Assembly: GCA_963815195.1 (NCBI GenBank)
Contig: CAWFGE010000013.1
Coordinates: forward strand, 288,001-352,000
Source: an uncultured Planctomycetaceae bacterium
GTDB lineage: Bacteria; Planctomycetota; Planctomycetia; Planctomycetales; Planctomycetaceae
Direction: 5' to 3'
DNA length: 64,000 nucleotides
The position numbers and the translations under genes were made by a program. The number at the start of each line of letters is the position of its first letter. Position 1 is the first letter of the stretch. Below the pieces are notes generated by a model, which was not told where the DNA came from, ran no database searches, and saw only the letters and a list, made by a program, of their open reading frames with translations. Of this stretch, positions 28,531-43,713 are shown piece by piece.

Positions 28531-29295
28531 TTACACGTGGATTGCGGCCCCGCCGTCGACGGTGAGGGTCTCGCCTTGGACCAGATCCGACAGCGGGCTC
28601 GACAGAAACAGCACGACGTTCGCGACGTCATCCGCTTCCAGCACGCGGTCGCCCATCATGCTTTTTTCGGTGCGGCCGGCGAACATGCGGTCGGCGAAGG
28701 GGATTTTGCGGGTGGAATCGGTCTCGACGAGGCCGGCTTTGACGACGTTCACATTCACCCCGCGGTCGCCGACTTCCAGCGTCAAATGCCGGGCGATGCT
28801 TTCGAGCGCGGCTTTCGATCCGCCGATGAGTCCATACATGGGGAGTGCCATGTGCGAGCCGTGGCTGGAAATCGCCACGACCTTGGCCCGGCCTTCGCTC
28901 TTTTGTAAGAGCGGCAACGCGGCCCGGACGAGATACACGAGGCTCAACACGTTGGTGCTCATCGTGGTCTGGAAATGCCTCGCGTTTGCGGCAAGCAGCG
29001 GGCGAAATCCGCCGGTCGCGGCGTTGCTGACGACGATGTCCAATCGCCCGATGTTTTGAGCCACGAAGTCCATCATCGATTCCACATCATCTTCTTCGCC
29101 CACGTCGGCTTTGATGACATACGCCCGCCGGCCCATGCCGACGACTTCGCGGGCGACCTCCATCGCGGCTGCCTTGGAAGTGACGTAGTTGATGATGACA
29201 TCGGCCCCGGCCTGGGCGAATTTCAAAGCACATGCCCGCCCGATGCCCCGCGAAGCGCCGGTCACCAAAGCCACTTTGCCGTCCAAATGAATCAT
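28531..29295 (-). CDS. SDR, FabL-like enoyl-ACP reductase (last gene of the PKS operon)
   Basis: ALVTGASRGIG, VSNAATG, Y-x6-K motif YGLIGGSKAALE as in FabI/FabL enoyl reductases. Confidence 0.8.
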   Translation of the reverse strand: MIHLDGKVALVTGASRGIGRACALKFAQAGADVIINYVTSKAAAMEVAREVVGMGRRAYVIKADVGEEDDVESMMDFVAQNIGRLDIVVSNAATGGFRPLLAANARHFQTTMSTNVLSLVYLVRAALPLLQKSEGRAKVVAISSHGSHMALPMYGLIGGSKAALESIARHLTLEVGDRGVNVNVVKAGLVETDSTRKIPFADRMFAGRTEKSMMGDRVLEADDVANVVLFLSSPLSDLVQGETLTVDGGAAIHV

Positions 29296-29316
29296 GGGTT
29301 TCTCGATGTTGCAGGA

Positions 29317-29352
29317 TTAAGAGTAAGATTAAGATTAAGATTAAGATTAAGA
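29317..29352. repeat. Hexamer microsatellite (TTAAGA)n, about 6 units
   Basis: TTAAGA GTAAGA TTAAGA TTAAGA TTAAGA TTAAGA between the Rieske and SDR genes. Confidence 0.85.
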
Positions 29353-29355
29353 ATT

Positions 29356-30492
29356 TTAGCCGACCATCACCGGGTCTTCGACATTCGCGTTGGTTTTATC
29401 GCGGATGTATTCTTGGAAATGGAACAGCCGCTCTTCGCGGATGGAGATCAACCCGCGGGACGGATGCTGGCCTGATTCCATGCCTTTCTGGATGTCGGGC
29501 ATAATGCTCGTGTCTTCGGTATGCACCGTCGGCCAGAACTTGCGGCCCCAATGCCTGAGTCCCCGGTACAGCAGATAACTTCCCAACCGCCCCGGTTCGC
29601 CGGAATACACGAAGACCTTCGCAAGAATCCGCGAGCGGTGCGGGTTGATGGGGAACACCGCCTCGGCAAACGAGAACAGGGCCATTTTCCCGTACATCGT
29701 GTTGGGGTAGTAATGATAGTGCTTGTATTCGTTGTCGAACTCCCGCCGGGCCAGGCGATGCACCAACACGTTCAAGCGGTGGTCGATTTCCCGGTCGGCC
29801 CGCTGCGTGGTGGCATACGTCGTCCAGCCGTCTTCCAATTCATGAAAGCAAATCTCCGCCTCCGGCGACGAGCGGAACGTGTTGGGATGCACGTAGTCCA
29901 CGTGGTAGCTTTCCAGCGAATTCTCGATCTTGATTTTCCAGTTGCATTCGACTTCGTAATCCAGCGACAGGATCAGCCGCCGGTCCATCCCGAACAGGTT
30001 CTGGGCGATTTCGTAGCCCGGCCCCAACTGTTCGGACAACGGCGGCGGGTTGTCGCTGAGGTTCACGAAGATCAACCGGCCCGCGGTCTCGGTGTGGTAT
30101 TTGATTAAACCGAGTTCGCCTTGCTTCATGGGTTTGAAGCTGCGGGCGTCGGGGATTTTTCTGGTGTTTCCCGTCTCGTCGAACTCCCAGCCGTGGTATT
30201 GGCAGCACAGCCGTTCTTTCGCCTGGCCGCATTTCGCGTGGGTCAGCATGGAGAATCGGTGCGGACACACATTGAGCAGCGTGTGCAGCTCGCCGTCTTT
30301 GTTCCAGACGATTATGGGCCTGCCGAACAGTTCAAACGTCAGGAAGTCGCCGTCGTTCGGGATGTCCGTCAGCGTGCCCACGAACTGCCAACTGTCGCGG
30401 AACAGCCCGGCCATTTCCTGTTCGAGGTGCGCGTCCGAGGTGTAATGCTCGGGGCATAGCACCTGCGGCAGATGAGTTTCATGGATAAACAT
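29356..30492 (-). CDS. Rieske non-heme iron oxygenase, alpha subunit
   Basis: NVCPHR...CQYHGW Rieske ligands, NWKIKIENSLESYHVDYVH mononuclear Fe site, C-terminal ED. Confidence 0.93.
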   Translation of the reverse strand: MFIHETHLPQVLCPEHYTSDAHLEQEMAGLFRDSWQFVGTLTDIPNDGDFLTFELFGRPIIVWNKDGELHTLLNVCPHRFSMLTHAKCGQAKERLCCQYHGWEFDETGNTRKIPDARSFKPMKQGELGLIKYHTETAGRLIFVNLSDNPPPLSEQLGPGYEIAQNLFGMDRRLILSLDYEVECNWKIKIENSLESYHVDYVHPNTFRSSPEAEICFHELEDGWTTYATTQRADREIDHRLNVLVHRLARREFDNEYKHYHYYPNTMYGKMALFSFAEAVFPINPHRSRILAKVFVYSGEPGRLGSYLLYRGLRHWGRKFWPTVHTEDTSIMPDIQKGMESGQHPSRGLISIREERLFHFQEYIRDKTNANVEDPVMVG

Positions 30493-30506
30493 GGCTGCTT
30501 CCTCTT

Positions 30507-31274
30507 TTAGGAGATCCCCACCAAGACGGATCCTTGACGGGCGAGAACCGCGTCGGATTCCATTCGGCCGCCAATCGTCGGGACTTCCCGCAACGCGGCG
30601 GGTGTTTCGGAGACGATCGCTGTCACCGCAATGTGGCCGTCCACGTGCCAGGTCGTGATGCGGGAGCGGTCCTTCAATGAAGTTCCCTCATATCGGCAAT
30701 GATACGCGCCGCCCTCAACGGATAATACTTCAAACTTTCGGGGCACGAAACTTTCGCCGGTGCCCACGGCTTTATAGACGGCTTCCTTCACGGCCCAGCA
30801 CGCCGCGGCCTGGCGGGCATCGCCCCTTCGCAATCGCCGGCGCTCCTTGGCGGAAAACCAGAACACGAGCGACTGCGGGTTGAGATCTTCCGGCTCCGCC
30901 AGATCCACGCCGACGCGGATCGCGGGATTCAATGAGACGCCCACCAGCGCGCCCCGGCGGGAATGCGAAATCGAAACGTGCCACGGCTGCGGTTTTTGCT
31001 CAACGTGAACCAGCGGCCGCACCGCCCGGCCCTCACCGTCGCGGGAGAGGATTTCAATCTGCTTCCACTCCGTAAACCAAGGCAGGAGTTGCTCGGCGAG
31101 CAGCTCTTTCGCGAGCCAACGCCCGGCGAGCCATTGCCGGTGCCGGCTTTCGTCGCGGTAGCGCTCGCATTCGCGGCGTTCCGCTTCGCTCAGCCAGTCG
31201 GCCGGTTCGGTTTCCCAGGCGGGCTGGATATTTTCAAAGGATCGATAACAGACCCAAATATTACGAGACAGCAT
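30507..31274 (-). CDS. Sfp-type 4'-phosphopantetheinyl transferase
   Basis: SISHS, VGVDL, WAVKEAVYKA. Confidence 0.93.
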   Translation of the reverse strand: MLSRNIWVCYRSFENIQPAWETEPADWLSEAERRECERYRDESRHRQWLAGRWLAKELLAEQLLPWFTEWKQIEILSRDGEGRAVRPLVHVEQKPQPWHVSISHSRRGALVGVSLNPAIRVGVDLAEPEDLNPQSLVFWFSAKERRRLRRGDARQAAACWAVKEAVYKAVGTGESFVPRKFEVLSVEGGAYHCRYEGTSLKDRSRITTWHVDGHIAVTAIVSETPAALREVPTIGGRMESDAVLARQGSVLVGIS

Positions 31275-34200
31275 CGAGAGGAGCCTCTGTCACAATGACG
31301 TTTCGGTATCCCTCCACTTGGAGTATGACGGAGCCGTCTTCTCCGAAGACGGTAAAATCGAACAACGCGAGCTTGCCGGTCCGGCCCCGTTTTTTGATGT
31401 GGACCAGGCAGACTTCGCCCGGCGCGGGAGCGCGGCCGAGGCGGACGGCTTCGATTCCATCGGGAATCGACACCGCCCCCCGCAAATGCCACCAGAGCAC
31501 AACGCCGCAACTGAAAAAACAGGCATCGAGCAAAGCCGAGGGCATGACCCAGCGGCTGCCTTGCCGCCGGCCGCCGACTTCGCCCGGCGAGGGAGCGACG
31601 ATCTTGCCCCAGCCGTCTTCTTCGTCGACGGCGAACTCGCGCAGGCAGCGGAACACGGGGCCGTGATAAATCACCAGCTCGCTTTCCGGATACCAGCACA
31701 GCGTCCAGCCTGCCGGTTCCGGCGGCGGCGGAACGGCAAGAGCCGGCCGCCTGGGAGCGGTCTCGACCTGGGCCCGCAGATACGGTTTGTCCTTCAATAG
31801 CAACTGCCCGCGGCGGTTGTAAAAGTCGCAGGTGAAATCGCATTGGATCATGTCCCCTTCGGCCTGGGCGTGAACCCGCGCGGCTTGCATCTCGTCCGTA
31901 TGAAACCTGAGGCCGTTCAGGATTTCGATGTTCTTGATCCCCACGATTTCGGAATCCTCGCCCGCCAAGAGCCAGGCCGATTCCAGGATGGTTTCCAAGG
32001 TCATCACCACGGGCATCATCGGGCGTTCTTTGTAGCGGTGCTGGACGAGGAAAATGTCGTGCACCGGATCGAGCCGCACTTCGCTGATCAGCCGACGGCC
32101 GGGTTCCTGTTCGATGATCGAATCCACCATCGGAAACGCCTCCGGCCCGAAGGCATCGGCCGAATTGTGGGCCGCCGGTGAAGACAACAGGTTCGAGGTG
32201 TTGGCGTATTTTTCCCGGCAGTAACCGAGTTCGGTAATCGCGATTTCCCGTTCCGGCAGGCCCGCGGCGATTTCATTGAGCAGATGCTCGCAGCCTTCGC
32301 GGGCGGGCATGAAGGTGATGTTGTGCAACTTGGCGATGTGCTTCGATTCCGGCCGCACCGCCATCCCCACATCGTCCCACGCGTGCCAGTGGAACGTGGT
32401 CACCGGGCAATCGGGCCGTTGCTTCTTATACCACGCCCCGAGCTTGGCGAGCATTTCGTTGGCGAGGCAGTAATCGGTTTGCCCCACGCCGCCGAACCGC
32501 CCGCTGACCGAGCCGAACGTCACAAAAAACCCTAGCGGGTCGTTGATCGTCAAGGCCATCAGGTTCGCGGCCCCGTCGACTTTGGCCCGGATCGTGGCAT
32601 CGACGAGTTCGAGCTTTTTCTTCTCGAAGCTGGCGGCCCGCTCGAAGCCCGCCCCGTGCACGATCCCGGTGATCGGGCCGCTGGTCTGGCGAATCTCCGC
32701 GAGCAGTTGTTCGAGCGTCTCGCGGTCCGCAATGTCTGCGGAATGATAGCTCACATCCAGCCCCGCCTCGGCGAAGGCTTGGAGGTTCCGGTCGATCTCG
32801 ACCGCCTTTTCAAATCTGGCCCAGACATCGATCGGCTTTTGACCGGCGGCGAGGGCTTCTTTCATCACGGCGGCTTTGTAGTCCTTTAAGTCGGCTGTGC
32901 TAAATTGATGATACCCCGCCGGCACCAGAGGCTCTGGGCTGGAGCCGATCAAGTGCAGTTTCGCCCCGGTCCTTGAGCCGAGTTCGCGGGCGACTTCCGC
33001 CGTCACGCCCCGCGCTCCGCCCGTGACAACGAACACGCCGCCCTGCGGCAACTCGGCGGACTCGGTTTTAAGCGAAACCGCTTCCGGCCGGACCACAAAC
33101 CGCCGGCTTCCCAGGTAGCCAACTTCCAGTTCCGCATCGTTCGACAGCCATTCCCGAAGCGCGGCGTCGGCGAGTTCTTGCGGAGACATCGAAGCCGGGG
33201 CGTCGACGATTTTCGCGCGGAACGATTGCACATGCCGGGCGAGGCGGAGTTCCATCGCCACGCCTTTGACCAGGCCGGCGAGCGCACCGCTTTCCACGTT
33301 TTGCACATCGCCCGAAAACCCGAAGTCCCCGCCCAATTGCGTCAAGGCCAACAGCGAACCCTGGGCGAAGCGGTCGTCCGCGAGCATCAGTTGATACCAC
33401 TTCTGGCACACTTGATAAGGCAGCATCACCCCGCGCTGCCGGCGCTGATCCCACGCCGGCTCATCGAGATTCGTCACCGCTTCTGCAGCGCAGGTGGTCG
33501 CCAGGATCAAATGCGGCGACGGCGTGGTTTGCCAAACGGACTCCAATTTCGCCAGCAGGTTTTCGATGGATTCCTTCGCCGACAAATCCGTCACCAGAAC
33601 ATTGCACGATTGCAGTTTTTCCCGAATCGCCGCCGAGACGGGATTCTCGCCCACGATCACCACGCCGCCGGCGATTGGAGCGGTCTCGTTTTCCGGAAGC
33701 GGTTCGGTTTCGACCATCCGCATCGCGAATCGCTGGCAGACCGTTTTCTGATGGCGCTCTTCCGCTTGCCTGTAGGATTCGAGTAGTTCCTCGCGGGAAA
33801 TCGTGCTTGCGAAACTCGGCGAGGGATTTTCATTTGAAGGACCTTTTGATTCCGCGGACGAATGGGCCTGGAGTTCCGGCAGGAGTTCGCTGAGCTTCAA
33901 TTCGCAGAACTCATTTTGATGCCCGTTGGACTTGGGGCCGGCGGTGACCCACAGGTTGCCTCGGCCCGGCTCGAAAACGATGCTGATCTGGTTGTCCACT
34001 CGGCGGAGCGTGTTGATATTGGACGCGGGAACCTCGCGGCCCCGGCTGGGATCGAAGCGGTCCCGCAGGACTTGCTGTGCTCGTTCCGAAGTGATATTGC
34101 GGGGTGGATCGCCGCCCAGGAGATCGCGGAGCCGGTTCAAGCGGTGCTGCGAAGCGGCGGGGATTTCGCTGGCGAATGTCCGCATCAGCCGGTGGTTCGC

Positions 34201-37200
34201 GGAGATCACCGCCGGGGCGGTGGGCAGGACCTTGAGTTCGTGTCCATCGAACTCCACGTAACACACCCGGTCCGCGGCGTGATGGCTCAAGCACAAACTG
34301 AAAGCCCCGGCCTTGGGCAGTTGGCGGATGATCGCCACCGCGGTTTCGATGTCCTCCGCCTGCTCGAGCGCGGCTTTGACCATCACAATCGGCAGGCGGC
34401 CGACGGGGGACAATTCATCCTTGGGAATATCCAAGAGGGCCGCGGTGCTGATCGCCAGCCCGCGGGCGTTGATGCCGTTCAAACTGCCCACCTGCCCGGC
34501 GACGCCGAAGGTGATGCTCGCGAGCCCGTCCGCGGGTTTTCGGACTTGGATGACGCGGTCCAGACAATCCTGGACCCCCAAACCGAGCCTGAGTTCTTCA
34601 TTGGCCGCGTGGAGCAAGCCGTGATTTTGATTGAGCCGGGCCGTGACCGCGAAGTGCAACCCCCCGGCCCCGGCATCGAGATACAAGCGAAGGTTATGGG
34701 AAATCACGCTGCCCCATGTCACGTCCGCCCCCTTGGCGATGCCCCGCATTTCCTCCATGTCCCGAGGACCAAAGAAGGCGTCCGCCTGGGCCACGAGCGT
34801 TTCCATGTCCCGCATGCGGTCCCAACGGCTGCCGGCGAGGTCGGCGTACCGTCTGAGGATCGCGCGGATCTCCGCCTTGCGAGCCTGCCCGTGTTGATAG
34901 CCCATTTCATAAGGCGAGCCGGACAGCCTGAGCACATGGAGCCCGTGATGCTCTTCCACCACCGGCGATGCGTCGGCGACGGCAGATTCCACGGCCGGTT
35001 GTACGGAAGATGGTTCGGTGGCCCGAGCGATCCGCAGCCCGGAGGTTTGACGATCGGGATCGAGCGCCCCGGTGACTTCCACGCAGGCGCGGGCGGCGAA
35101 GAGTTGTTGGAGGCCGCTGCGCTTGGGATGATCGCAGCCGACGGTCACGAGTTCGCCATTGGGAAAGATGCGGTTGTGGAGTCCCGTGAGCACCTGCCGG
35201 GGACCGACTTCGATGATGATGTTGACCCCCTCCGCCACGAGCCGTTCTGCGAGGGCAACGTATTCCACGGGTTTCGTCATTTGGAGGACGAGGTTTTCGC
35301 GGATGTCTAACGGGTCGGCCACATAGCGGTTGGTGACGCTGCTCAACACCGGAACCTTGGGCGGCGTGATGGCGATTTGCTCGAGGGCCGCTGCGAAGGG
35401 CTTCTTGACCGGTTCCATCAGCCAGGTGTGAAACGCGGCGGGCACATCGAGAATTTTCGCTTGAAAGCCCTGTTGGATCACGGCCTCGGCCAATCGCGAG
35501 ACCGCTTCTTCCGTTCCACCCGCGACGGTCTGGTCGGGGGCGTTCTGGTGGGAGATGGCCAGGTCGGAAATCTGCCGGCAGTGGGTTTCGATCACGTCGG
35601 CGGGTGCGGAGGTGGAGACCAGGACACCGGGATTTTGGGCACAGTTGTCGATGGACTCGCAGCGGGCGCGGGTGGCGAGCACGGCTTCTTCAAAACTCCA
35701 AGCCCCGGCCGCGACCAAGGCCGCCAGTTCGCCGAAACTGTGCCCGAACACGCAATCGGGTTTGAGCCCCAGTTCGCTCACCGCCGCATACGCCAGCGTA
35801 TTCGCGACCAGCAGCGACAGCTGCGTCCGCCAGACATCGGACTCCAGCGGGTTCTCTTCCTGCCACGCGAGCTTGGCGAAGCTCGGGAGATCGAGTTTGG
35901 CGAGGACTTCGTCGAGCTTTCGGCACGTTTCCCGCGCGGGGGCGAAATCTTCCACCAAGGATTTGAGCATCCCCGTGTACTGCGATCCCTGTCCTGGAAA
36001 TGCAAACGCAATCCGCGGCGGCTCGCTGAGGACTTCATTCCAGAAGATGCCTTTGCCTTCCAGAATCGATTTCGCCGCCGGCTCCCGGCCCTGCTTGAGG
36101 AACAGATCGAGCTTCGCCGCCAGGTCGTCCGCGGACTCCGTGACGATCGCCAATCGATTGCGGTGCGACGCTTGGAAAGCCGATTGATCGGCTGCGGCAT
36201 AAAGTTTCCCGGCCTGCTCGATCGCGTCCGCGGCGGCATCCCAAAGCTCGGTTTCGTTCGCGGCCCCAATCCGCACGGTCCGCCAGGTTCCAATGGAATC
36301 TTGATCGGATTTCGCACTATCAATCGGCTTCGCGGCGTCACGGCTGGGTTTCGTGCGCGGGGCGGGAGCTTTGGGCACCTTCAATGCGCCTTCGATGATG
36401 AGGTGATACGCCACCTGGCATTGGGAGAAAGAATTGATGCCGGCGTACATTCGGCCGTCTTCGTTGAGGCCCGGCAGCTTCGCCGCGGTTCGGGAAAGAG
36501 CGAGCGTTTGCTCGTGGGATGAGATTTCCGGCCGGAGCGAATCGCCGACGACGTTGGGCGGCATCTCGGCGTGATTGAGTTCCGACATCGCCTTGAGCAA
36601 TTCGAGTGCCCCCGACACGCCGCCCGTGTGCCCGAACTGCCCGGCGACCGCGCCGATTTGAAGCTGAGCATCCCGCGGTTCGGAGCCGAAGGTCTTGACG
36701 ATGGCCGCGAGTTCGGCCTGGTCCTTTTGCGGAATGCCCGTGGCAGCCGTCTCCACGATGGAAATTTGCGACTGCGACAGCCCGGCATTCGCGTAACTGC
36801 GGTTCGGCGGCGAGCTTCAGGCCTTCTTCGAGAGATTCGCTTCGGGCCACGCCGATGCCGCGGATGATGGCATGAACGCGGTTGCCGTCGCGCTCGGCGT
36901 CGGAAAGCCGTTTGAGCAACAAGACCCCCACGCCTTCGCCGGGCACGCAGCCGTCGGCGTGTTGGTCGAAGGGACCCTTTGGCGACGTGAAGGTGAGCAG
37001 TCCATTGCGGGCCATGAGTTCATACGATCCAAAGCCCATCGCCCTATGCCCGGCGGCGCAGATCATCATGTCGCAGTCGCCCGTTTCGAGCAAATCCATG
37101 CAGGCGTTGAGAGCCGCCAACGACGAGGCATCGCCGGAGTCCACCGCCGTCGCCCCGCCCATCAGGTCGAAGGTTTTGGTGATCCGCGAGGACATGGTGC

Positions 37201-39250
37201 TCGCGGTGAAGCTGCCGGTCTCGTCGACCAACGCCGGCATCCGCTTGAGCAGGATTTTCTGGTACTCGTCGGCGATGCGGCCGATGGCCTTTTCCGGGAC
37301 GCCTCGTTTTCGCAGGCTGTTCGCGAGGTGCTTTTGGAACTTGGGCAGGCCCAGCCCCATTTGCAATTGCTCGCCGAAGTCGCCGCCGCAGAAAATCGTG
37401 CCCACGACCACGCCGGTCCGCAGGCGGTCGAAAGGTTTCTCCTTGCTGTATCCCGCATCCTGGAGCGCCTGGTCCGCGGCGTCGAGGAGCATGAACTGCA
37501 GCGGGTCGGCGGTGGCGATTTGCTTGGGCGGGACTTTGTGCTTTTTCCAATCGTATTCGAAATCGGTGATAAAGCCGCCGACGTTCACGGGCACTTTCCA
37601 GATCTCGTTCGATCCCGGCTCGTAGCCGAGGGACGCATCCCAGCGATTTAGCGGCACGGGGCGTTTTTGATCCTGCCCCGAAGCGAGAACGTCCCACAGA
37701 GCGTCCGCCGTCCGTGCCCCGGGAAACACGGCGCCGACGCCAATGATCGCAATCGGCTCGCAGCGCTTGCGGCTGAGAACGCGCGGTGCGCTGGTTGTCT
37801 TTTTCGATGGACCGATGAGTTGCCTGGCGGTGTCGGGGCGGCCTTCTTCCAAGACGACGTGCACATTGAGGCCGCCGATACCGAAAGCGTTGACGGCCGC
37901 TCGGCGGGGCCCGCCCGCGGCTGGTTCCGGCCAAGGCAGAGACTGTTGCGGGACGAAGAACGGCACCTGGTCCCATTGGATCGCTGGGTTTTGATGGTGG
38001 ATGTTGATTTGCGGCGGGATCAGGCCGTTTTTCATCGAGAGCACGGCTTTGACGAGGCTCGCCAGACCCGCCGATTCCAGCGTGTGGCCCACATTCGCTT
38101 TGACGCTGCCCACGGGAATTTTCTGGCCGGGCCGGAAGTGCTCGCCGAGGACTTTGGTGAGGGCCGCGATTTCGGTGGCGTCGCCGACCTGCGTGGAGGT
38201 GGCGTGCATTTCGACGTATTGGAGATCCTCGATCTTGAGTTCATCGTGATAAGCCCGGCGGATCGCTTCGATCTGCCCTTCCTGCCGGGGTGCCCAGAGG
38301 CTCTTGCCCTTGCCGTCGGAGGAAATCCCGATCCCGCGAATCACGGCCTGAATCTCATCGCCCGCGGCGAGCGCGGCTTCCAAAGTTTTGAGGCAGAGCA
38401 CGATGTAGCCGTCCGAAGCCACGAGGCCGTCGGCGTCGGCATCGAAGGGCCGGCTGCCCGTCGGGCTGACCGATTGGGCCTGAGAGAACAGCACCAGGCA
38501 ATCGGAATGCACATAAGACGCCCCGCCCACGATCGCCATGTCGATCTGGCCGAGTTGGAGCGCTCGAGCCGCGTGGCCCAAGGCCCGCAATGACGAAGCA
38601 CACGCGGCATCGAACGCCATGGACGGACCGTTCAAGTTGAGGCCCTGCGTAATCAAAGCCGCCGCGTGATACGCATTGGAGCACATGCGAAGCTGCGGAT
38701 GGTCGGGATGGAAGGGGCCGCGAAATTGGGCGATGATTTCGCGGATCACATCGTCCGCCTGCTCCGGCGTGAGTTGCTTGAAGTCGGCGATCTCGCGGAG
38801 ATACTGGGCCGCATGTTCCAGTTGCCGGGCATAAACCACCGCCCCGGCGAGCGCGCTGGGCGGGGTATGGCCGATGTAAACCCCCACGTTGTCGGTCGGC
38901 AATTTGAACGGATCGAGCCCCGCATGCCGGCACGCCGCAACCGCGACTTCATAGAGCCTTAAATGCACTTTGTGGGATTGGTTGATGAGCGACTGCGGCA
39001 GCGGGCTGGTTTTGGGATCGAACGGCCGCTCGGCCACCATCCCGCCCATCTTGGTGTAGGACTTGGTCTTGTGGCCTTTGTCGGGATGGTAATAGAGGGC
39101 GGGATCGAAACGTTCCGGCGGAAGCTCGCCCAGGTTGCTCAGGCCCTCGGCGAGCAAGCTCCAAAACTCGTCGAGATTGTCGGCTCCGGGCAGCCGGCAA
39201 GCCATCCCGGTGATGGCCAGGGGAATTTCCGCGTCAATGGATTTTGACAT
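31261..39250 (-). CDS. Type I (PfaA/Hgl-like) PKS: KS-KS(inactive/CLF-like)-AT-C45 Ntn-hydrolase-like-KR-DH (apparent 1-nt insertion ~36803)
   Basis: KS1 DAACASSL/EMHATST/NVGHT; KS2 DSGDASSL; AT FPGQGSQY/GHSFG/AAFH; C45-like LSGSPYEMGYQHG...LLHAANEE...GINARGLAI; KR TGGARG/HGAG/YCLAN; DH QHRYKERPMMP/DACF. ORFs 36338-39274 and 31261-36756 join as ...KLAA[E/N]RSYANAGLSQSQISIVETAATG. Confidence 0.9.
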
Positions 39251-39357
39251 TTTGGAAAAGTCAACGTGATGCAAGGCGAGGCGGGCGATATTGCATCGTG
39301 CAAAGGAACCGGCGCGAGTTCAGTTTGCGCCACATCAGGCGGGGCAGGGTGGAGTGG

Positions 39358-39392
39358 GCCTTCCGAACTCCGGCCGTGGGAGTTCGGAAGGC
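39358..39392. promoter_or_regulatory. Intercistronic stem-loop between the ACP and PKS genes
   Basis: GCCTTCCGAACTC / GAGTTCGGAAGGC perfect 13-bp stem, no U-tract. Confidence 0.55.
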
Positions 39393-39411
39393 GAAGCGGA
39401 GGTTTTCGCGG

Positions 39412-40815
39412 TCAGCCCGCGGCTTTTCCCGGCGCGGCCAAGAATTCGCAGACGTGCCGCAATGTGGGGAAATCGTCGAGGGACAAATTCTCGTCGGTCA
39501 CATCGACCGAAATCGCAAATTGTTCGGCCAGTTCGCCCATCATTTGGGCTTTCTTGATGCTGTCGATGCCGAGGTCCGCTTCGAGGTCGGCATCCAACTC
39601 CACCATCTCCGGCGGGTAGCCGGTCTGCTCCACCACGAAGTTCACAAGGAACTCTTCGAGTTCATGCTGCCCCAAAGCGGACGGCGCGTCTGCCTGGGTT
39701 TCTATCTTGGTCTCGGGTTGGGCGGACGGATGAGTGCCATTCGCCGAGGGACCGGGCGGCGCGGCGGTTGTCGTGACAGGTGTCGCCGGAGCTGGAGAAA
39801 TGCTCTCGGCCACGGGGGTGGGCGTTTTCGTTTGAGGCTTCGCCGCGGTGGATCCCGAACTTGCCGATTGCAAAAACTCCATCACGTGCCGGAGCGTGGG
39901 AAAATCGTCCAGCGAGAGATTTTCATCGGCGACATCGACCGAGATGGAAAACTGCTCCGCAAGCTCGCCGAAGAGTTGAGCCTTTTTGATGCTGTCGATG
40001 CCCAGGTCGGCTTCGAGGTCGGCGTCCATTTCCACCATCTCCGGCGGGTAGCCGGTTTGCTCGACGACGAAATCGACGAGAAACGATTCCAAATCCACAT
40101 TACCCAGCGGATTCGCCGCGGGAGCCGAATCCTCTGCGGCCGGACGCGCGGAATAATGAACCGCCCCGTTCCCGTTGGCGTGCGGATTCACCGAACCATT
40201 GCTGCCCGGCTTTTCCGGCTCTCGGCTCCGGGCTCTCGGCTCTGGGCTCTGGGCCGGCTCTGGGCTCGCCGCTTTTCGCGCTCCGCTTTCCAGGAACTGC
40301 ATTACGTGGGCGAGGGTCGGAAAGTCGTCCAGCGACAAACTTTCATCGGCGACATCGACCGCGATTTCAAATTGCTCAGCGAGTTCCCCGAAGAGTTGAG
40401 CCTTCTTGATGCTGTCGATGCCCAGGTCGGCTTCGAGGTCGGCGTCCATTTCCACCATTTCGGGCGGGTAGCCGGTTTGCTCGACGACGAAATCGATCAA
40501 GAAGTTTTCCAAGTCCGCCCCGCTGAGTTGCCTGAGCGACGGGGCGGTCTTGGCGGGTTCGGGCGGATTGATGTTGAAAGCATCCAAAGTCGCCGCCGGC
40601 TCTTTTGGTTTTTCCGCTGGCTTCGGCGCAGGTTCCGGCACGGATTTCGGGGCCGGCGTTTGTTGTTGCGGTTCCGTTGCGGGCGAATCCTGCGACTTTT
40701 GGCGCATTTTCTCCTTGCGCCGCTGGGTCGCATCGAAATGGATGATTCCCGCCTCACAATCTTCAGTCAGCGCCTCGTGACCCAACATGTCGGACGCATG
40801 GATGAGTGAACTCAC
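39412..40815 (-). CDS. Stand-alone triple acyl-carrier protein
   Basis: Three near-identical domains FVVEQTGYPPEMVE.DADLEADLGIDSIKKAQ separated by P/A-rich linkers. Confidence 0.95.
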   Translation of the reverse strand: MSSLIHASDMLGHEALTEDCEAGIIHFDATQRRKEKMRQKSQDSPATEPQQQTPAPKSVPEPAPKPAEKPKEPAATLDAFNINPPEPAKTAPSLRQLSGADLENFLIDFVVEQTGYPPEMVEMDADLEADLGIDSIKKAQLFGELAEQFEIAVDVADESLSLDDFPTLAHVMQFLESGARKAASPEPAQSPEPRARSREPEKPGSNGSVNPHANGNGAVHYSARPAAEDSAPAANPLGNVDLESFLVDFVVEQTGYPPEMVEMDADLEADLGIDSIKKAQLFGELAEQFSISVDVADENLSLDDFPTLRHVMEFLQSASSGSTAAKPQTKTPTPVAESISPAPATPVTTTAAPPGPSANGTHPSAQPETKIETQADAPSALGQHELEEFLVNFVVEQTGYPPEMVELDADLEADLGIDSIKKAQMMGELAEQFAISVDVTDENLSLDDFPTLRHVCEFLAAPGKAAG

Positions 40816-40936
40816 TTCCCACTCCGCTTATTCTAAACAATCGAAAGATCTCCCTCGCCCCTGTCCAACCAGGAGCGACCCAGCCCACTCGCGGGATCGC
40901 ACGGGTCCATCGTGCTGTCCCGCAAATGGAGACGTT

Positions 40937-42478
40937 TTATTCCCCCGGCGAGAGGTTTGGACTCTTGCCGGCGGCGATTGCCAAATTCTGCAAGGCGTCG
41001 GCGAGGTCTTCTAAGGGAACCCCGTTGCCTTCGATCACGACGCGGCCAGTCCCAATGGCCTCTCCGGCATTTGTGCGGGATTCCGCCAATTGCGCGAATG
41101 TCGTGGTGTTGAGATAGTATGTCGCCGTGCATCGTGCGCTCAAGCCCGGACGCGTGGAAATCAATTTCCCCTGTTCCAATGTTAACTCCCATTCGCCGCC
41201 GCCAGGACCGTTGATCTGCAGCCCCAAATGGATCGGCGAGGAACTTTCAACATTTTTCGCGGCGGAATCCGAAACCAGCAGCCGGCCGGGCATCGGCTTC
41301 ATGCGGGCATGCACATCAAAAGCCGGGGCCGGCGGAATCATTCGCGGCCAGCCGAAATTGTTTTCGATGGCATACCGGCACATGCGGCGGATCACCGCGT
41401 GATTCATTTCCGGGCACGGCAAATGCGGCAGGGCGTGCTCGAGGTTTCGCCGGTCGAACGTCGGATCATCCTTCCAATACGCCTGGTAAACGGTCATCCC
41501 ATCCAGAAACGACTTGCGAAACAAGTCCCAATCGATGGATTCGGGCGTCAATTCGCTTTCGTAATCCATCTTGTCCAAGAAAACCTCCTCCATCACGTCC
41601 TGAATCATCCGCACCGACGTTTTTTGCGCCGGCGTGAGATGATAGGTCTTCTGGTGAAACTTGGGGGACTGGAAAATCTCGGAAATCACGCGAGAACACC
41701 AATCCACCGGCACCAGATTTTTGCACTCGTGGCCTTCGAGCTTTAAAATCTCCCGCAGACGCTCGGAAACCATTTTGATGACTTCCGTCATGCCTTCGCG
41801 GGACGCCCCCGGCATCGCCGCCCGCGAAAGCAGCGTGGAAACCAACTTCAGCGGCACGTAAAACCCGTGAAAGGTTGTGGAATAGCCCGTTTGCGAATCG
41901 CCCAGAATGATCGCGGGCCGATAAACCGTGACCGAATCCAAAAAGTCGGCCCCGCGGACGAGCAACTCCGCCTGAAACTTGCTGATTTCATAATCGTTGC
42001 CGTGTTTTTGGCCGACGTCGAGTTCATCTTCCCTCACGATGTCCTGCCGGAGTCCGCAGACATAAGCCGTGGAGACATGATGGAACTCGCGAATCCGCGC
42101 CTGCCGGGCGAACTCGAGGAGATATTGGGTCCCGTGCAAATTCGACCGCCAAGGCTCGCCGTCCGGCGAGTCGGCGTGGAACGTCAAACTGGCGGCATTG
42201 TGCAGAATCGCCCGGCAGTTTTCGGCGGCCCATTTCGCCTCGGCCTCTGTCAGTCCCAAACCGGGCTGGCACAGATTTCCTTCAAGCACGACGGGGCGGG
42301 GCAGCGCATGGCCCGCGGCTTTTTCCCAGCGGGCGACCAGATTTTCCACGCGGTGCACCGCCGATTCAAATCGGGTGCCACGAACCAAAACCGCCAATTT
42401 CACATCGGCGCGAAGCAGATCGCGAATCAAATAGGACCCTAAAAGCCCCGTGCCGCCGGTGAGGAAAACATAACTCAT
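40937..42478 (-). CDS. Thioester/acyl reductase (NAD_binding_4, HglB/FAR-like) with a C-terminal SCP2-like domain
   Basis: FLTGGTGLLG, HNAAS, HVSTAYV, YEISK, YRPAII; C-terminal LQINGPGGGEWEL...GRVVIEG. Confidence 0.85.
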   Translation of the reverse strand: MSYVFLTGGTGLLGSYLIRDLLRADVKLAVLVRGTRFESAVHRVENLVARWEKAAGHALPRPVVLEGNLCQPGLGLTEAEAKWAAENCRAILHNAASLTFHADSPDGEPWRSNLHGTQYLLEFARQARIREFHHVSTAYVCGLRQDIVREDELDVGQKHGNDYEISKFQAELLVRGADFLDSVTVYRPAIILGDSQTGYSTTFHGFYVPLKLVSTLLSRAAMPGASREGMTEVIKMVSERLREILKLEGHECKNLVPVDWCSRVISEIFQSPKFHQKTYHLTPAQKTSVRMIQDVMEEVFLDKMDYESELTPESIDWDLFRKSFLDGMTVYQAYWKDDPTFDRRNLEHALPHLPCPEMNHAVIRRMCRYAIENNFGWPRMIPPAPAFDVHARMKPMPGRLLVSDSAAKNVESSSPIHLGLQINGPGGGEWELTLEQGKLISTRPGLSARCTATYYLNTTTFAQLAESRTNAGEAIGTGRVVIEGNGVPLEDLADALQNLAIAAGKSPNLSPGE

Positions 42479-42810
42479 CGCGTCAAACTCTTGGAGTCGG
42501 ATCCCTCCCCTCCGTTTGTATGAGATTCTCTCTAAAAGAACATCAAAAGATCGGCTGATCTTGCGTTTACGTACCCTGGCCCTCGGATGTTACGTCTTAC
42601 GAATATAATGTTGGTGCAACCCCGAATCAAGAACCAGCCTGGGTAAACTTCCTATCTTGACAAGTTGACTTCAATTCCTCTCCCTTATTACTCTGGATTC
42701 CGGTTTAGGGAGGTTTCGACGGCGGTGCGGGCCTCTTTTCCACAGATTCCTTAAGAATTCCTCCCGAAATGCGGCCGGCGATCGGCCGGTCGCCAACCCG
42801 AAAGACCTCC

Positions 42811-43502
42811 ATGACCTCCGTGATCGAAAATCCCTCCTCCCGCTCCAGCGACTCGGTCCCCTCCCCGGTTTCGAGCCACCGGCTGGGAGGTCGGACAACG
42901 AGTTCTATCGAAAGCTGCTGCACATGCTGCCGGGGCTCTTGCCGTTCGGGTTGGCGTTTCTGCCTCACGGCGACCCGCCGGATTGGATCGCCCTGGGGTG
43001 CGTGATCGGGATTTCCGCCCTGTTGACGGGAATGTATCTCGTCCTGCACCGCCGGGTCAGCCGGCCGGAGGAAGCGAACTTCTTGAGCACGGCCCTCAGT
43101 TACCCCGCCACCGTTTTGGGCACGCTGCTTGTGTTTCGCGCCCACGCCGAATTTGCGATGGTCGTGGTGATCCTGATCGCCTTCGGCGACGGCTTCGCCT
43201 ACATTTGCGGGAAGAATTTCGGGCGGCGGCGTTTGCCCTGGAACCCGGAAAAAACCTGGGCGGGCAGCATCGGGTTCATGGTGTTCTCGGCGCCGGTGGC
43301 CACGCTCGCGTTTTGGCTGGAGGCTAAGAATCCGGACGTATCGTGGCTCGTGGCGGGGGCTTGCTGCGCCACGGCTTCGCTGTTTGCCGCGGTCGCCGAA
43401 TCCTGGCCGACCCAACTCACCGACAACCTCCGCGTCGGCCTGACCGCCGCCATAACGGTTTCCGGCAGTTACTTTCTGCTCGCCGCGTGCGGCCTGCATT
43501 AA
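42811..43502 (+). CDS. CTP-dependent phytol/dolichol/diacylglycerol-kinase-like membrane protein (apparent frameshift ~42888)
   Basis: EFYRKLLH, GDGFAYICGKNFG, KTWAGS, AES...DNL; the RKLLH frame has no upstream start, so it is joined to ATG 42811. Confidence 0.75.
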
Positions 43503-43713
43503 GATTCCATGTATGCTCCTGCGTCTTGCGGATCGAATTCCATGAGCCCGAATCGCCAGCGGGGGAAAATGTCGCCCGGCGGCCTGTTCCGAGTGGACTC
43601 ACTCTTTGCGAGCGGGTAGAGTCTCCCATTGGAGAAAATTGATCTATCCGTTTCTCCTCGCGTTTCGGCGTCCCGCGTTCTGCGTATTCCCCATGAAGGG
43701 AGGTCGGCTGTCG

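What the first reader, a model, noticed from the sequence alone, without database searches (positions are those of the whole stretch)
28531..43502. Self-contained PUFA/Hgl-like PKS lipid pathway with a rearranged architecture (top candidate system)
Seen: one minus-strand run of reductase-SCP2, free triple ACP, a ~2,660-aa KS-KS*-AT-C45-KR-DH protein, Sfp PPTase, Rieske oxygenase and FabL-like SDR, with a phytol/dolichol-kinase-like gene divergent from the same intergenic region. Known: in PfaA/HglE the tandem ACPs lie between AT and KR, KS-CLF is on PfaC/HglC, the enoyl reductase is FMN-dependent PfaD, and HglB-type reductases release chains reductively. Here the ACPs are a separate gene, PfaA- and PfaC-like parts are merged, and a Y-x6-K SDR appears to replace PfaD. 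Inference: an iterative synthase making a long-chain lipid that is released as an aldehyde/alcohol, oxidised by the Rieske enzyme and possibly phosphorylated by the kinase. I do not recognise a characterised cluster with this combination.
Basis: partly seen in the sequence, partly recalled or inferred. Interest (0 to 1): 0.9.

Follow-up and report, generated by a model that had tools for sequence, protein, structure and literature searches.

The report
Planctomycete PKS-like lipid gene cluster
This planctomycete gene cluster encodes a fatty-acid-synthase-like assembly line, conserved in related bacteria, that likely builds a long saturated lipid chain and would release it as an aldehyde or alcohol; its product is unknown and it differs in several parts from the known enzymes of this kind.

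Summary
All seven genes lie at the stated coordinates. The large gene is broken by one extra base at about 36801/36802, which close relatives lack.

The cluster is a conserved module. In 31 related loci (Planctomycetaceae, Pirellulaceae, one Acidobacteria MAG) the KS-CLF-AT-...-KR-DH synthase lies next to a FabL-like enoyl reductase in 19 of 19 loci with at least 4 kb downstream. A thioester reductase with an SCP2-like tail is found in 17 of 31 loci.

The PPTase (17/31), Rieske oxygenase (10/31) and CTP_transf_1-like membrane protein (6/31) are accessory. The free triple-ACP gene marks one sub-lineage; sister clusters keep the ACPs inside the synthase.

Catalytic residues are intact, except in the C45 domain. 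There the nucleophile cysteine is alanine in every orthologue that aligns, so it is predicted to be a dead domain.

The cluster has no PfaD and no FabA-type dehydratase, so a polyunsaturated product is unlikely. Best reading: an iterative synthase likely makes a long saturated or partly hydroxylated chain that is released reductively. Oxidation by the Rieske enzyme and phosphorylation are conjecture.

I found no characterised equivalent. Verdict: a new variant of the PUFA/Hgl-like "secondary lipid" synthases, of moderate to high interest.

The parts
28531..29295 (-). FabL-like enoyl-ACP reductase (SDR, Y-x6-K); predicted trans-acting ER of the synthase
   Evidence: Pfam adh_short_C2 E 6e-58. 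NCBIfam FabL 252 bits, below the 328 cut-off. Best PDB hit is B. subtilis FabL 3oic at 177 bits against 125 for the next hit, with YGLIGGSK aligned to the FabL Y-x6-K. Adjacent to the PKS in 19 of 19 loci with at least 4 kb downstream.
29356..30492 (-). Rieske non-haem iron oxygenase, alpha subunit only (accessory tailoring enzyme, substrate unknown)
   Evidence: Pfam Rieske and Ring_hydroxyl_A. Best PDB hit is carnitine monooxygenase CntA 6y9c at 91 bits over residues 16-352. CPHR...CQYHGW and ESYHVDYVHP motifs are visible in that alignment. Present in 10 of 31 related loci.
30507..31274 (-). Sfp-type 4'-phosphopantetheinyl transferase (255 aa); its start overlaps the PKS stop by 14 nt
   Evidence: Pfam ACPS E 1e-16. 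Coordinates. Present in 17 of 31 loci.
31261..39274 (-). Iterative type I PKS/FAS-like synthase, KS-CLF-AT-C45(dead)-KR-DH; 2,670 aa if one base at 36801/36802 is ignored; read here as two frames (36338-39274 and 31261-36756)
   Evidence: Pfam and NCBIfam. Orthologues are single ORFs of 2,392-3,868 aa. Active sites.
37820..39229 (-). KS domain with Cys-His-His (Cys225 at 38602)
   Evidence: DAACASS, HATST and GH motifs kept in the window and in 17 of 17 orthologues. Coordinates.
36391..37759 (-). Second KS-like domain = chain-length factor (Asp at the Cys position, 37132; first His lost); contains the frameshift
   Evidence: D/E/N/S/A at the Cys column in 17 of 17 orthologues; one stretch, 201-743, aligns to the KS-CLF didomain 6riw.
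36801..36802 (-). One extra base (C in 'gaaCCgc') that breaks the PKS frame
   Evidence: Relatives P0004, P0005 and P0006 read AAERSYA / AADRSFA / AIERGLK straight through. A metagenome contig lacks one base at 36802, but only 16 nt lie beyond the gap.
35167..36006 (-). Acyltransferase domain (GHSFG, AAFH)
   Evidence: Pfam Acyl_transf_1 E 1.5e-37. NCBIfam FabD 187 bits. Motifs.
33958..34923 (-). C45 / isopenicillin-N-acyltransferase-like domain with Ala (34650) at the nucleophile Cys position; predicted non-catalytic
   Evidence: NCBIfam C45_proenzyme 135 bits, above the 85 cut-off. Alignment to IAT 2x1d places Ala opposite Cys103. Ala in 14 of 17 orthologues, gap in 3, Cys in none.
32371..33039 (-). 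Ketoreductase domain (TGGARG; S...Y...N)
   Evidence: Pfam KR E 7e-32. Motifs.
31279..32079 (-). PKS-type double-hotdog dehydratase (His1573 at 32040, Asp1744 at 31527); not FabA-like
   Evidence: Pfam PS-DH. PKS_DH_N in orthologues. Motifs. None of the 4 FabA-family matches in the genome lies in the window.
39412..40815 (-). Free-standing carrier protein with three PfaA-type ACP domains (Ser at 40413, 39993, 39561) joined by Pro/Ala-rich linkers
   Evidence: Pfam PP-binding x3. NCBIfam PfaA ACP region 151 bits. Translation; positions. A separate gene in 12 related loci and in G270.
40937..42478 (-). Stand-alone thioester reductase (residues about 4-301) with a C-terminal SCP2-like lipid-binding domain (about 418-497)
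   Evidence: Pfam NAD_binding_4 E 1e-44 and TIGR01746 134 bits. Best PDB hit by sequence and by fold is the MxaA R domain, with TGGTGLLG and YEISK kept. SCP2. Model has mean pLDDT 79.9.
42924..43502 (+). Divergently transcribed CTP_transf_1-family membrane protein (192 aa; CdsA / dolichol-kinase / phytol-kinase superfamily); accessory, role unknown
   Evidence: Pfam CTP_transf_1 E 3e-11. Weak NCBIfam CdsA match at 28 bits. Atlas neighbours are named 'phosphatidate cytidylyltransferase family'. Linked in 6 of 31 loci.

Best explanation
This is a conserved operon for an iterative type I FAS/PKS-like 'secondary lipid' synthase that likely builds a long, largely saturated acyl chain and would release it reductively as a fatty aldehyde or alcohol.

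Shown by sequence:
- A KS with an intact Cys-His-His triad, fused to a chain-length factor.
- A malonyl-type AT, a KR and a PKS-type DH in one 2,670-aa protein.
- A separate protein with three PfaA-type ACP domains, and an Sfp-type PPTase.
- A FabL-like Y-x6-K enoyl reductase that is additional to the genome's FabI.
- A stand-alone thioester reductase fused to an SCP2-like domain.

Inferred steps:
- The PPTase would arm the ACPs and the AT would load malonyl units.
- KS-CLF would extend the chain and set its length. KR and DH in cis and the FabL-like ER in trans would reduce each round.
- The thioester reductase would cleave the acyl-ACP with NAD(P)H, while its SCP2 tail would hold the hydrophobic product.
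- The Rieske oxygenase may then hydroxylate or desaturate the chain.
- The CTP_transf_1-like membrane protein may phosphorylate or otherwise activate the alcohol. These last two steps are accessory and speculative.

The C45 domain is predicted to be a non-catalytic structural or docking domain.

The single-base frame break is probably an assembly error or a very recent private mutation.
For: Domains and motifs.

KS-CLF is co-linear with the PUFA-synthase KS-CLF structure 6riw.

ER:
- The best PDB match is FabL 3oic, with Y-x6-K aligned.
- The genome has a separate FabI-type gene: L032, best 14 NCBIfam hits all FabI/InhA-type enoyl-ACP reductases, top 324 bits. The cluster's ER is therefore an extra copy.
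- No pfaD-family match in the genome.
- No FabA-type domain in the window.

TR:
- The best sequence and fold matches are the terminal R domains of PKS/NRPS: MxaA 4u7w/4w4t and 8v1x.
- The SCP2-like tail is supported.

Linkage in 31 related loci:
- SDR in 24 of 31, counting matches of at least 50% identity. All 19 loci with at least 4 kb downstream have it.
- TR in 17 of 31, which is 16 of 17 loci with at least 3.3 kb upstream.

Linkage in a 300-genome sample of the phylum:
- The PKS-specific region lies in a large ORF in G270, G190 and G173, and on a short contig in G255.
- Each of these four has the SDR within about 4 kb.
- The three fetched (G270, G190, G173) also have the TR next to the PKS.
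- Within the window's own family, the 3 of 15 genomes with the SDR are the same 3 that have the PKS.

The core set (TR, PKS, SDR, Rieske) recurs in an Acidobacteria MAG, L029.

Precedent for a stand-alone TR releasing a chain from a PUFA-like synthase: Zmn14 of the zeamine pathway (PMC5811116, passages read).

Frame break:
- Relatives read through it.
- P0004, at 93% identity, is broken elsewhere but not here.
- eutB in the same window and an OleD-like gene are also split. This fits indel errors in the assembly.
Against: - No product, expression or biochemical data. No RNA run was listed.
- Chain length and the pattern of reduction cannot be read from the sequence.
- As assembled, the gene is broken. 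The metagenome contig that lacks the extra base has only 16 nt beyond the gap, so it is not a firm bridge.
- The SDR scores below NCBIfam's FabL cut-off (252 vs 328), and enoyl reduction was not tested.
- FabL-like proteins of 38-46% identity occur in 26 other genomes of the sample without this PKS, so the family is not exclusive to the cluster.
- The Rieske and CTP_transf_1-like genes are missing from most related loci.
- Relatives carry other tailoring genes: class-III aminotransferase, AMP-binding enzyme, Condensation-like protein. The final products therefore probably differ between lineages.
- No reductase or ferredoxin partner for the Rieske protein lies in the cluster.
Confidence: 0.65

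Rival explanations
1. The cluster is a pseudogene remnant in this organism. The frameshift separates KS and half of the CLF from the rest of the synthase, so no product is made here, whatever the intact orthologues do.
For: The frame is broken in the assembly. The gene caller behind the protein database also split it: P0003 has only 1,671 aa.
Against: - There is only one 1-nt break in 8 kb, and all catalytic motifs are intact.
- All six partner genes are intact.
- Close relatives read through the site.
- Two other split genes, eutB and an OleD-like gene, suggest assembly indels.
- A near-identical metagenome contig lacks the base, though it is a weak bridge.
Confidence: 0.15
2. It is a PUFA or polyene synthase, for example feeding the C31:9 polyolefin known from planctomycetes through Ole enzymes, as proposed for the Type I pfa-like clusters.
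For: There is similarity to PfaA and PfaC parts. n-C31:9 is widespread in planctomycetes (PMC3327967, passages). Shulse and Allen link pfa-like clusters to olefins (PMC3098273, passages). An OleD-like gene exists elsewhere in the genome.
Against: - No FabA-like dehydratase/isomerase domain in the cluster: none of the 4 genome matches lies in the window.
- No PfaD.
- A dedicated FabL-like ER and a thioester reductase point to saturated, reductively released chains.
- The genome carries another PKS with FabK/NMO-like ER matches at C13:406991-409861, outside the window. That is the more Pfa-like candidate.
Confidence: 0.07
3. The chain is released as an aldehyde and converted to a long-chain amine or amide (zeamine/fabclavine-like logic), not to an alcohol.
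For: In 3 related loci (L016, L021, L028) a class-III aminotransferase and an AMP-binding enzyme follow the cluster. A Condensation-like protein follows it in 8 related loci. Zmn14 releases an aldehyde that is transaminated (PMC5811116, passages).
Against: The window cluster has no aminotransferase, AMP-binding or Condensation-like gene between 28.5 and 43.5 kb, and the flanks are unrelated.
Confidence: 0.08

Closest known systems
Bacterial PUFA synthase (PfaA-E)
   Same: Iterative type I synthase. It shares tandem PfaA-type ACPs (LGIDS), a KS-CLF didomain, a malonyl AT, KR, a PKS-type DH and an Sfp-type PPTase.
   Different: - One protein carries KS-CLF-AT-KR-DH.
- The ACPs are a separate gene.
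- No FabA-like DH pair and no PfaD; a FabL-like SDR is present instead.
- An embedded dead C45 domain.
- Reductive release by a thioester reductase.
- NCBIfam PfaA scores are 334 and 385 bits for the two pieces, against a cut-off of 1010.
Heterocyst glycolipid synthase (Hgl island of Nostocales)
   Same: A Pfa-like synthase without DH/isomerase domains. HglC is KS-CLF-AT (PMC3098273, passage), and the island includes ER, thioester reductase and PPTase (PMC11804610, figure legend read). The chemical logic matches: a long saturated chain released as an alcohol.
   Different: - The ER is of FabL type. That the Hgl ER is PfaD-like is recalled, not tested here.
- No glycosyltransferase or exporter in the cluster.
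- The KS-CLF is fused to AT-KR-DH.
- A C45 domain and an SCP2 tail on the reductase.
- Different phylum.
Shulse and Allen 'Type R' secondary lipid cluster (Acidobacteria, Chloroflexi, Elusimicrobia), product unknown
   Same: A single large pfaA-like gene with KS, MAT, CLF, 3-6 ACPs and KR, followed by a PPTase gene (PMC3098273, passage). The ACP-embedded relatives here have a similar layout. Relatives of the C45 region carry Acidobacteria and Thermomicrobiaceae names.
   Different: The printed domain order is KS-MAT-CLF, and no DH, SDR or reductase is mentioned. No Type R sequence was compared here, so identity with this family is untested.
Zeamine/fabclavine polyamine synthase (Zmn10-14)
   Same: A PUFA-like iterative synthase with a stand-alone thioester reductase that releases the chain (PMC5811116, passages).
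   Different: Zmn10-12 resemble PfaA, PfaC and PfaD, with an aminotransferase domain. The window cluster has no aminotransferase and no PfaD.
Bacillus subtilis FabL (PDB 3oic)
   Same: It is the best PDB match at 177 bits over residues 6-252, and Y-x6-K is aligned.
   Different: The score is below NCBIfam's FabL equivalog cut-off (252 vs 328). The gene sits in a PKS cluster while a separate FabI is present.
Isopenicillin-N acyltransferase / peptidase family C45 (PDB 2x1d)
   Same: Sequence match at E 1e-9 over about 255 residues. It scores above the NCBIfam C45 family cut-off.
   Different: The nucleophile Cys103 is Ala, so neither self-cleavage nor acyl transfer by the known mechanism is expected. 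The domain is embedded in a PKS.

Membership tests
PUFA synthase (Pfa) | Tandem ACP domains with an LGIDS phosphopantetheine site | tested here: met
   Three PP-binding domains with LGIDSIKK, but on a separate protein.
PUFA synthase (Pfa) | KS-CLF didomain | tested here: met
   The second KS lacks Cys and the first His. It aligns co-linearly to 6riw. That 6riw is PfaC is recalled.
PUFA synthase (Pfa) | FabA-like DH/isomerase domains | tested here: not met
   PF07977 gives four matches in the genome, none in the window. Only a PS-DH type domain is present.
PUFA synthase (Pfa) | PfaD-type (FMN) enoyl reductase | tested here: not met
   TIGR02814 gives no match in the 94.6%-complete genome.
PUFA synthase (Pfa) | Reaches the NCBIfam PfaA (TIGR02813) cut-off | tested here: not met
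   334 and 385 bits for the two pieces, and 151 for the ACP protein, against 1010.
Heterocyst glycolipid synthase (Hgl) | Thioester reductase for reductive release | tested here: met
   A stand-alone TR with TGxxGxxG and YxxxK. Its best matches are PKS/NRPS R domains.
Heterocyst glycolipid synthase (Hgl) | Linked glycosyltransferase and exporter genes | tested here: not met
   None between 20.7 and 53.9 kb of the window.
FabL enoyl-ACP reductase | Y-x6-K catalytic motif and equivalog-level score | tested here: inconclusive
   The motif is present and the best PDB hit is FabL. The score of 252 bits is below the 328 cut-off. Activity was not tested.
Peptidase C45 / IAT | Family-level sequence match | tested here: met
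   NCBIfam C45_proenzyme 135 bits, above 85. Pfam AAT E 3e-11.
Peptidase C45 / IAT | Nucleophile Cys at the self-cleavage site (Gly-Cys) | tested here: not met
   Ala is aligned to Cys103 of 2x1d. Ala in 14 of 17 orthologues, gap in 3, Cys in none.
SCP2 lipid-binding domain | Sequence match to the SCP2 fold | tested here: met
   The window protein scores 20.8 bits, just under the 21.3 cut-off. 7 of 13 orthologues match. The profile's best PDB hit is the SCP2-like C-terminal domain of 7tl5 at E 7e-8, and the further weak hits are SCP2 proteins and alkylsulfatases.
Rieske non-haem iron oxygenase (alpha subunit) | CxH...CxxH cluster ligands and His-His iron motif | tested here: met
   CPHR...CQYHGW and YHVDYVH are seen in the alignment to CntA. 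Pfam Rieske and Ring_hydroxyl_A.
Phytol/dolichol kinase or CdsA (CTP_transf_1) | Assignment to a specific subfamily | tested here: inconclusive
   Only the superfamily model matches: E 3e-11, and CdsA 28 bits against a cut-off of 385. The Atlas gives generic names only.

The most novel reading that the evidence does not exclude
This cluster family makes a so far unassigned class of planctomycete envelope or membrane lipid. One possibility is very long-chain alcohols or diols: reductive release, Rieske hydroxylation, then phosphorylation or CDP-activation by the CTP_transf_1-like protein to give alkyl-phosphate or diol-based polar lipids. Another is the C26-C32 (omega-1)-hydroxy chains that mark some planctomycetes and have no known pathway. 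In this reading the conserved dead C45 domain is a new kind of non-catalytic PKS domain.
Probability: 0.12. Interest if true: 0.8.

Novelty: new variant of a known kind. Interest (0 to 1): 0.6.

Why it matters
PUFA-synthase-like 'secondary lipid' clusters are widespread, and most have no known product.

This family combines four features that I did not find described together:
- KS-CLF-AT-KR-DH in one protein.
- A conserved but catalytically dead C45 domain.
- A trans-acting FabL-type enoyl reductase instead of PfaD.
- A stand-alone thioester reductase with an SCP2 tail.

It is a defined, testable candidate for unusual long-chain lipids of Planctomycetota. It also offers a natural experiment on ACP placement, since close relatives carry the ACPs either free or embedded. 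Knowing the product would help interpret planctomycete lipid biomarkers and add parts for engineering fatty alcohol synthesis.

Tried and rejected
- Expression: the look-up of sequencing runs listed no RNA holder, so nothing can be said about expression.
- Reads: only Logan contigs with small shares were available. One 251-nt contig crosses the indel with 16 nt beyond it. This is suggestive but not a firm bridge.
- Promoter and terminator scan: counts were at the level of shuffled sequence, 4 vs 2.9 and 24 vs 21, so it was not used.
- Rfam over 27.5-44.5 kb: no match.
- Earlier findings of the scan: nothing by place, words or sequence.
- FabV search (PF12241): no match, but the control rang nowhere, so it is uninformative.
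- Whole-model fold search: it returned only the reductase domain. The SCP2 tail was settled by a profile search instead.
- Literature: ten searches found no characterised cluster of this architecture, no PKS-embedded C45 domain and no TR-SCP2 enzyme. The library lacks most subscription journals. MIBiG and antiSMASH were not available.
- Link to (omega-1)-hydroxy C26-C32 fatty acids (PMC3327967): it could not be tested, because genomes in the genome search are unnamed. From my own knowledge, similar (omega-1)-hydroxy very-long-chain acids of rhizobial lipid A come from a type II AcpXL pathway, which weakens this link.
- Link to alkane-1,2-diol lipids of Thermomicrobia and Roseiflexus (PMC3504966, passages): the only support is a 'Thermomicrobiaceae' name on one partial relative. 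It was not pursued.
- Housekeeping ER: I considered that the highly conserved SDR might be the housekeeping enoyl reductase. I rejected this because a separate FabI-type gene exists and the SDR co-occurs with the PKS.

Full report
**What is there**

The window is G000:C13:288001-352000 of an 8.87-Mb, 25-contig genome that is 94.6% complete. Its nearest named relatives are Planctomycetaceae MAGs.

Between 28531 and 42478 seven minus-strand ORFs follow each other with gaps of -14 to 137 nt. Pfam and NCBIfam identify them as follows:
- a 254-aa SDR
- a 378-aa Rieske oxygenase alpha subunit
- a 255-aa Sfp-size PPTase
- a large PKS read as two overlapping frames (31261-36756 and 36338-39274)
- a 467-aa protein with three ACP domains
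- a 513-aa NAD_binding_4/thioester-reductase protein

A 192-aa CTP_transf_1-family ORF is transcribed divergently on the plus strand (42924-43502).

The flanks are unrelated to lipid synthesis. On one side lies PRPP synthetase. On the other lie a double-receiver response regulator, DHDPS-family and GFO/IDH/MocA enzymes, an SSF transporter and ethanolamine ammonia-lyase. GC content shows no anomaly.

**The frame break**

- The N-terminal frame reads ...IRGIGVARSESLEEGLKLAAE and then runs out of register.
- The other frame opens after a TGA at about 36816 and reads RSYANAGLSQSQISIVETAATGIP.
- One extra C in 'gaaCCgc' (36801/36802) explains this. Without it the ORF is 2,670 aa.
- Orthologues are single ORFs of 2,392-3,868 aa.
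- The relatives P0004 (93% identical in the C45 region), P0005 and P0006 read AAERSYA / AADRSFA / AIERGLK straight through.
- P0004 is itself truncated at other places but not here, so the breaks are not shared.
- One 251-nt contig of a wetland metagenome run lacks exactly one base at 36802. Only 16 nt lie beyond the gap, so it is a weak bridge.
- Two other genes are also split: eutB in this window and an OleD-like gene elsewhere on the contig.

I read the break as an assembly indel or a very recent private mutation. It is not decay and not programmed frameshifting.

**The synthase**

The domain order is KS, CLF, AT, C45, KR, DH. In an alignment with 17 full-length orthologues:
- The first KS keeps Cys-His-His in 17 of 17.
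- The second KS has D/E/N/S/A at the Cys column in 17 of 17 and has lost the first His, so it is a chain-length factor.
- The AT has GHSFG and AAFH.
- The KR has TGGARG and S...Y...N.
- The DH has the His...Pro and Asp motifs of PKS-type double-hotdog dehydratases.

These 17 are the ORFs of at least 2,300 aa among the 31 loci. Partial contigs and the frameshift-fragmented L001, L002 and L019 were left out.

The N part aligns in one stretch (201-743) to the KS-CLF didomain structure 6riw. That this entry is PfaC of Moritella is my recollection.

**The C45 domain**

Residues 612-933 of the C part exceed NCBIfam's C45 cut-off (135 vs 85 bits). They match isopenicillin-N acyltransferase at E 1e-9.

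The residue aligned to the nucleophile Cys103 is Ala (HFAVTA). In the orthologues it is Ala in 14 of 17, a gap in 3, and never Cys. Self-cleavage and acyl transfer by the known mechanism are therefore not expected, and the domain is predicted to be structural.

A stand-alone paralogue in the same genome (C17:357187-358629, 41% identity) also has Ala at this position. It carries an ACP-like N-terminus without the Ser.

Seventy-two database proteins (90% clusters) of 1,018-2,854 aa match this region, most of them within PKS-type domain sets. They carry only automatic names, from Planctomycetaceae, Thermoguttaceae, Pirellulales, a Sulfotelmatobacter and a Thermomicrobiaceae MAG. Two searches found no paper on a PKS-embedded C45 domain.

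**The partners**

*Carrier protein.* It has three nearly identical PfaA-type ACPs (LGIDSIKK) joined by Pro/Ala-rich linkers.

*SDR.*
- It has Y-x6-K (YGLIGGSK).
- Its best PDB match by far is B. subtilis FabL: 177 bits, against 125 for the next hit.
- The genome has a separate FabI-type gene (L032; best 14 NCBIfam hits all FabI/InhA-type enoyl-ACP reductases, top 324 bits).
- There is no pfaD-family match in the genome.
- None of the four FabA/FabZ-type matches in the genome lies in the window.

*Reductase.*
- It keeps TGGTGLLG and YEISK.
- By sequence and by predicted fold (mean pLDDT 79.9) it is closest to terminal R domains of PKS/NRPS: MxaA, and a Streptomyces PKS thioreductase.
- Its C-terminal 170 aa, as a 13-sequence profile, hit SCP2-fold domains: best E 7e-8 to the C-terminal domain of 7tl5, then SCP2 proteins and alkylsulfatases. 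Pfam SCP2 is found in 7 of 13 orthologues.

*Rieske protein.* It keeps the cluster and iron ligands and is closest to carnitine monooxygenase CntA at only 91 bits. Its substrate cannot be inferred.

*CTP_transf_1-like protein.* It could not be placed in a subfamily.

**Conservation**

The search for related loci returned 31 loci: Planctomycetaceae, Pirellulaceae, one Acidobacteria MAG, and two with doubtful bin names. By tblastn at E 1e-8 or better:

| Component | Loci with it (of 31) | Notes |
|---|---|---|
| SDR (matches of at least 50% identity) | 24 | All 19 loci with at least 4 kb downstream have it. The 7 without it end within 4 kb. |
| Reductase | 17 | 16 of the 17 loci with at least 3.3 kb upstream. 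The exception, L015, is an AT-less second copy. |
| PPTase | 17 | |
| Rieske | 10 | Often 2-3 tandem copies. |
| CTP_transf_1-like gene | 6 | |

The SDR is the most conserved protein: 94-95% identity in L001 and L002, where the PKS is 71-73%.

The ACPs are a separate upstream gene in 12 loci. They lie inside the PKS between AT and C45/KR in 10 loci (L026 is counted as inside because its contig starts in the ACP region).

In a 300-genome sample of the phylum:
- The C45-linker region matched in 36 genomes besides the window's own. It lies in an ORF over 2,500 aa only in G270, G190 and G173, with a partial match in G255. The other matches are stand-alone C45-like ORFs of 386-968 aa.
- The SDR's two high-identity matches (78% and 70%) are in G270 and G190.
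- G255 (48%) and G173 (43%) also have an SDR within about 4 kb of the PKS.
- Twenty-six other genomes have 38-46% matches without this PKS.
- The fetched regions confirm TR, ACPs, PKS and SDR in G270, and the same core with embedded ACPs and a Rieske gene in G190 and G173.
- G173 belongs to the window's own family, so the free-ACP layout marks a sub-lineage.

Pirellulaceae-type loci add further genes: a Condensation-like protein (8 loci), a class-III aminotransferase and an AMP-binding enzyme (3 loci, including L016), and polysaccharide genes (Wzy_C in 5 loci; Bac_transf and Wzz in 4 each).

**How it most likely works**

Shown: the domain set, the intact catalytic motifs, the extra ER, the reductase type, and the tight linkage of the core.

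Inferred:
- Malonyl units are loaded.
- KS-CLF performs iterative extension.
- Each round is fully reduced by KR and DH in cis and the FabL-like ER in trans.
- The reductase releases the chain as an aldehyde or alcohol, with the SCP2 tail binding the chain.

A polyunsaturated product is unlikely without FabA-like DH domains and PfaD. Rieske oxidation and any phosphorylation or CDP-activation are guesses, and these genes are dispensable in most relatives.

**Comparison with what is known**

- The cluster works like the Pfa/Hgl group of 'secondary lipid' synthases. It fails the tested membership features of Pfa: FabA-like DH, PfaD and the TIGR02813 cut-off.
- It lacks the glycosyltransferase and exporter of the Hgl island.
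- The planctomycete types I and J of Shulse and Allen both have pfaD. Their uncharacterised Type R (one pfaA-like gene plus a PPTase, in Acidobacteria, Chloroflexi and Elusimicrobia) is the closest printed layout (PMC3098273, passages read). I could not compare sequences.
- The zeamine pathway gives a precedent for a stand-alone thioester reductase on a PUFA-like synthase (PMC5811116, passages).
- Planctomycete genome papers only count 'hglE-KS' or type I PKS clusters, without products (PMC13190842, passages).
- Ten literature searches found no characterised equivalent. The library lacks most subscription journals, and MIBiG was not available.

**Verdict**

This is a real, conserved and uncharacterised biosynthetic module. 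It is a new variant of a known kind, with three unusual parts: the dead C45 domain, the trans FabL-type ER and the TR-SCP2 fusion.

Links to known planctomycete lipids, such as the C26-C32 (omega-1)-hydroxy acids that occur residually bound (PMC3327967, passages), are attractive but untested.

Interest 0.6.

Noticed in passing
window 48828-51118 (+): The ethanolamine ammonia-lyase large subunit is split over two overlapping frames. ORF 48828-49949 covers EutB positions 8-314. ORF 49871-51118 covers EutB 305-434, and the same ORF continues into EutC. This looks like another indel, and it bears on the quality of the assembly.
   Followed up: partly
G000:C17:357187-358629 (outside the window): A stand-alone paralogue of the PKS C45 domain (41% identity) also has Ala at the nucleophile position. 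It is preceded by an ACP-like segment without the Ser. Many other planctomycete genomes have stand-alone C45-like ORFs of about 400-500 aa.
   Followed up: partly
G000:C13:406991-409861 (about 55 kb beyond the window's end): A second PKS ORF of 2,020 aa has a KS and two FabK/NMO-like enoyl-reductase matches. It recalls the pfaD-pfaA 'Type J' layout described for a Planctomyces species (PMC3098273).
   Followed up: no
G000:C13:484113-485077 (outside the window): An OleD-like reductase gene is split into two ORFs of 199 and 207 aa that cover model positions 3-188 and 187-325. This is another probable indel.
   Followed up: no
L011 15056-23323 and L020 10187-18393: In these relatives an ABC transporter pair and a second PKS on the opposite strand (about 1,714 aa; KS...KR-DH, no AT found) lie between the PPTase and the FabL-like SDR.
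   Followed up: no
L015 4822-12000 (same MAG as L013): This is a second copy of the synthase. Its AT motifs are missing from the alignment, and no reductase, ACP, PPTase or SDR was found on the 17-kb contig.
   Followed up: no
L021, L023, L024, L027, L028, L031, L016: The ACP-embedded (Pirellulaceae-type) clusters carry a Condensation-like protein. Some carry a class-III aminotransferase plus an AMP-binding enzyme, or Wzy_C, Bac_transf and Wzz polysaccharide genes. This suggests amine, ester or glycan-linked end products in those lineages.
   Followed up: partly
L029 7499-15712 (Acidobacteria MAG): Here the thioester reductase domain lies in the same ORF as the synthase, N-terminal to the KS. 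The SDR and a Rieske gene lie downstream.
   Followed up: no
window 43606-44475 (+): A response regulator with two receiver domains and no output domain lies directly beside the CTP_transf_1-like gene. It was not found linked in the related loci.
   Followed up: no
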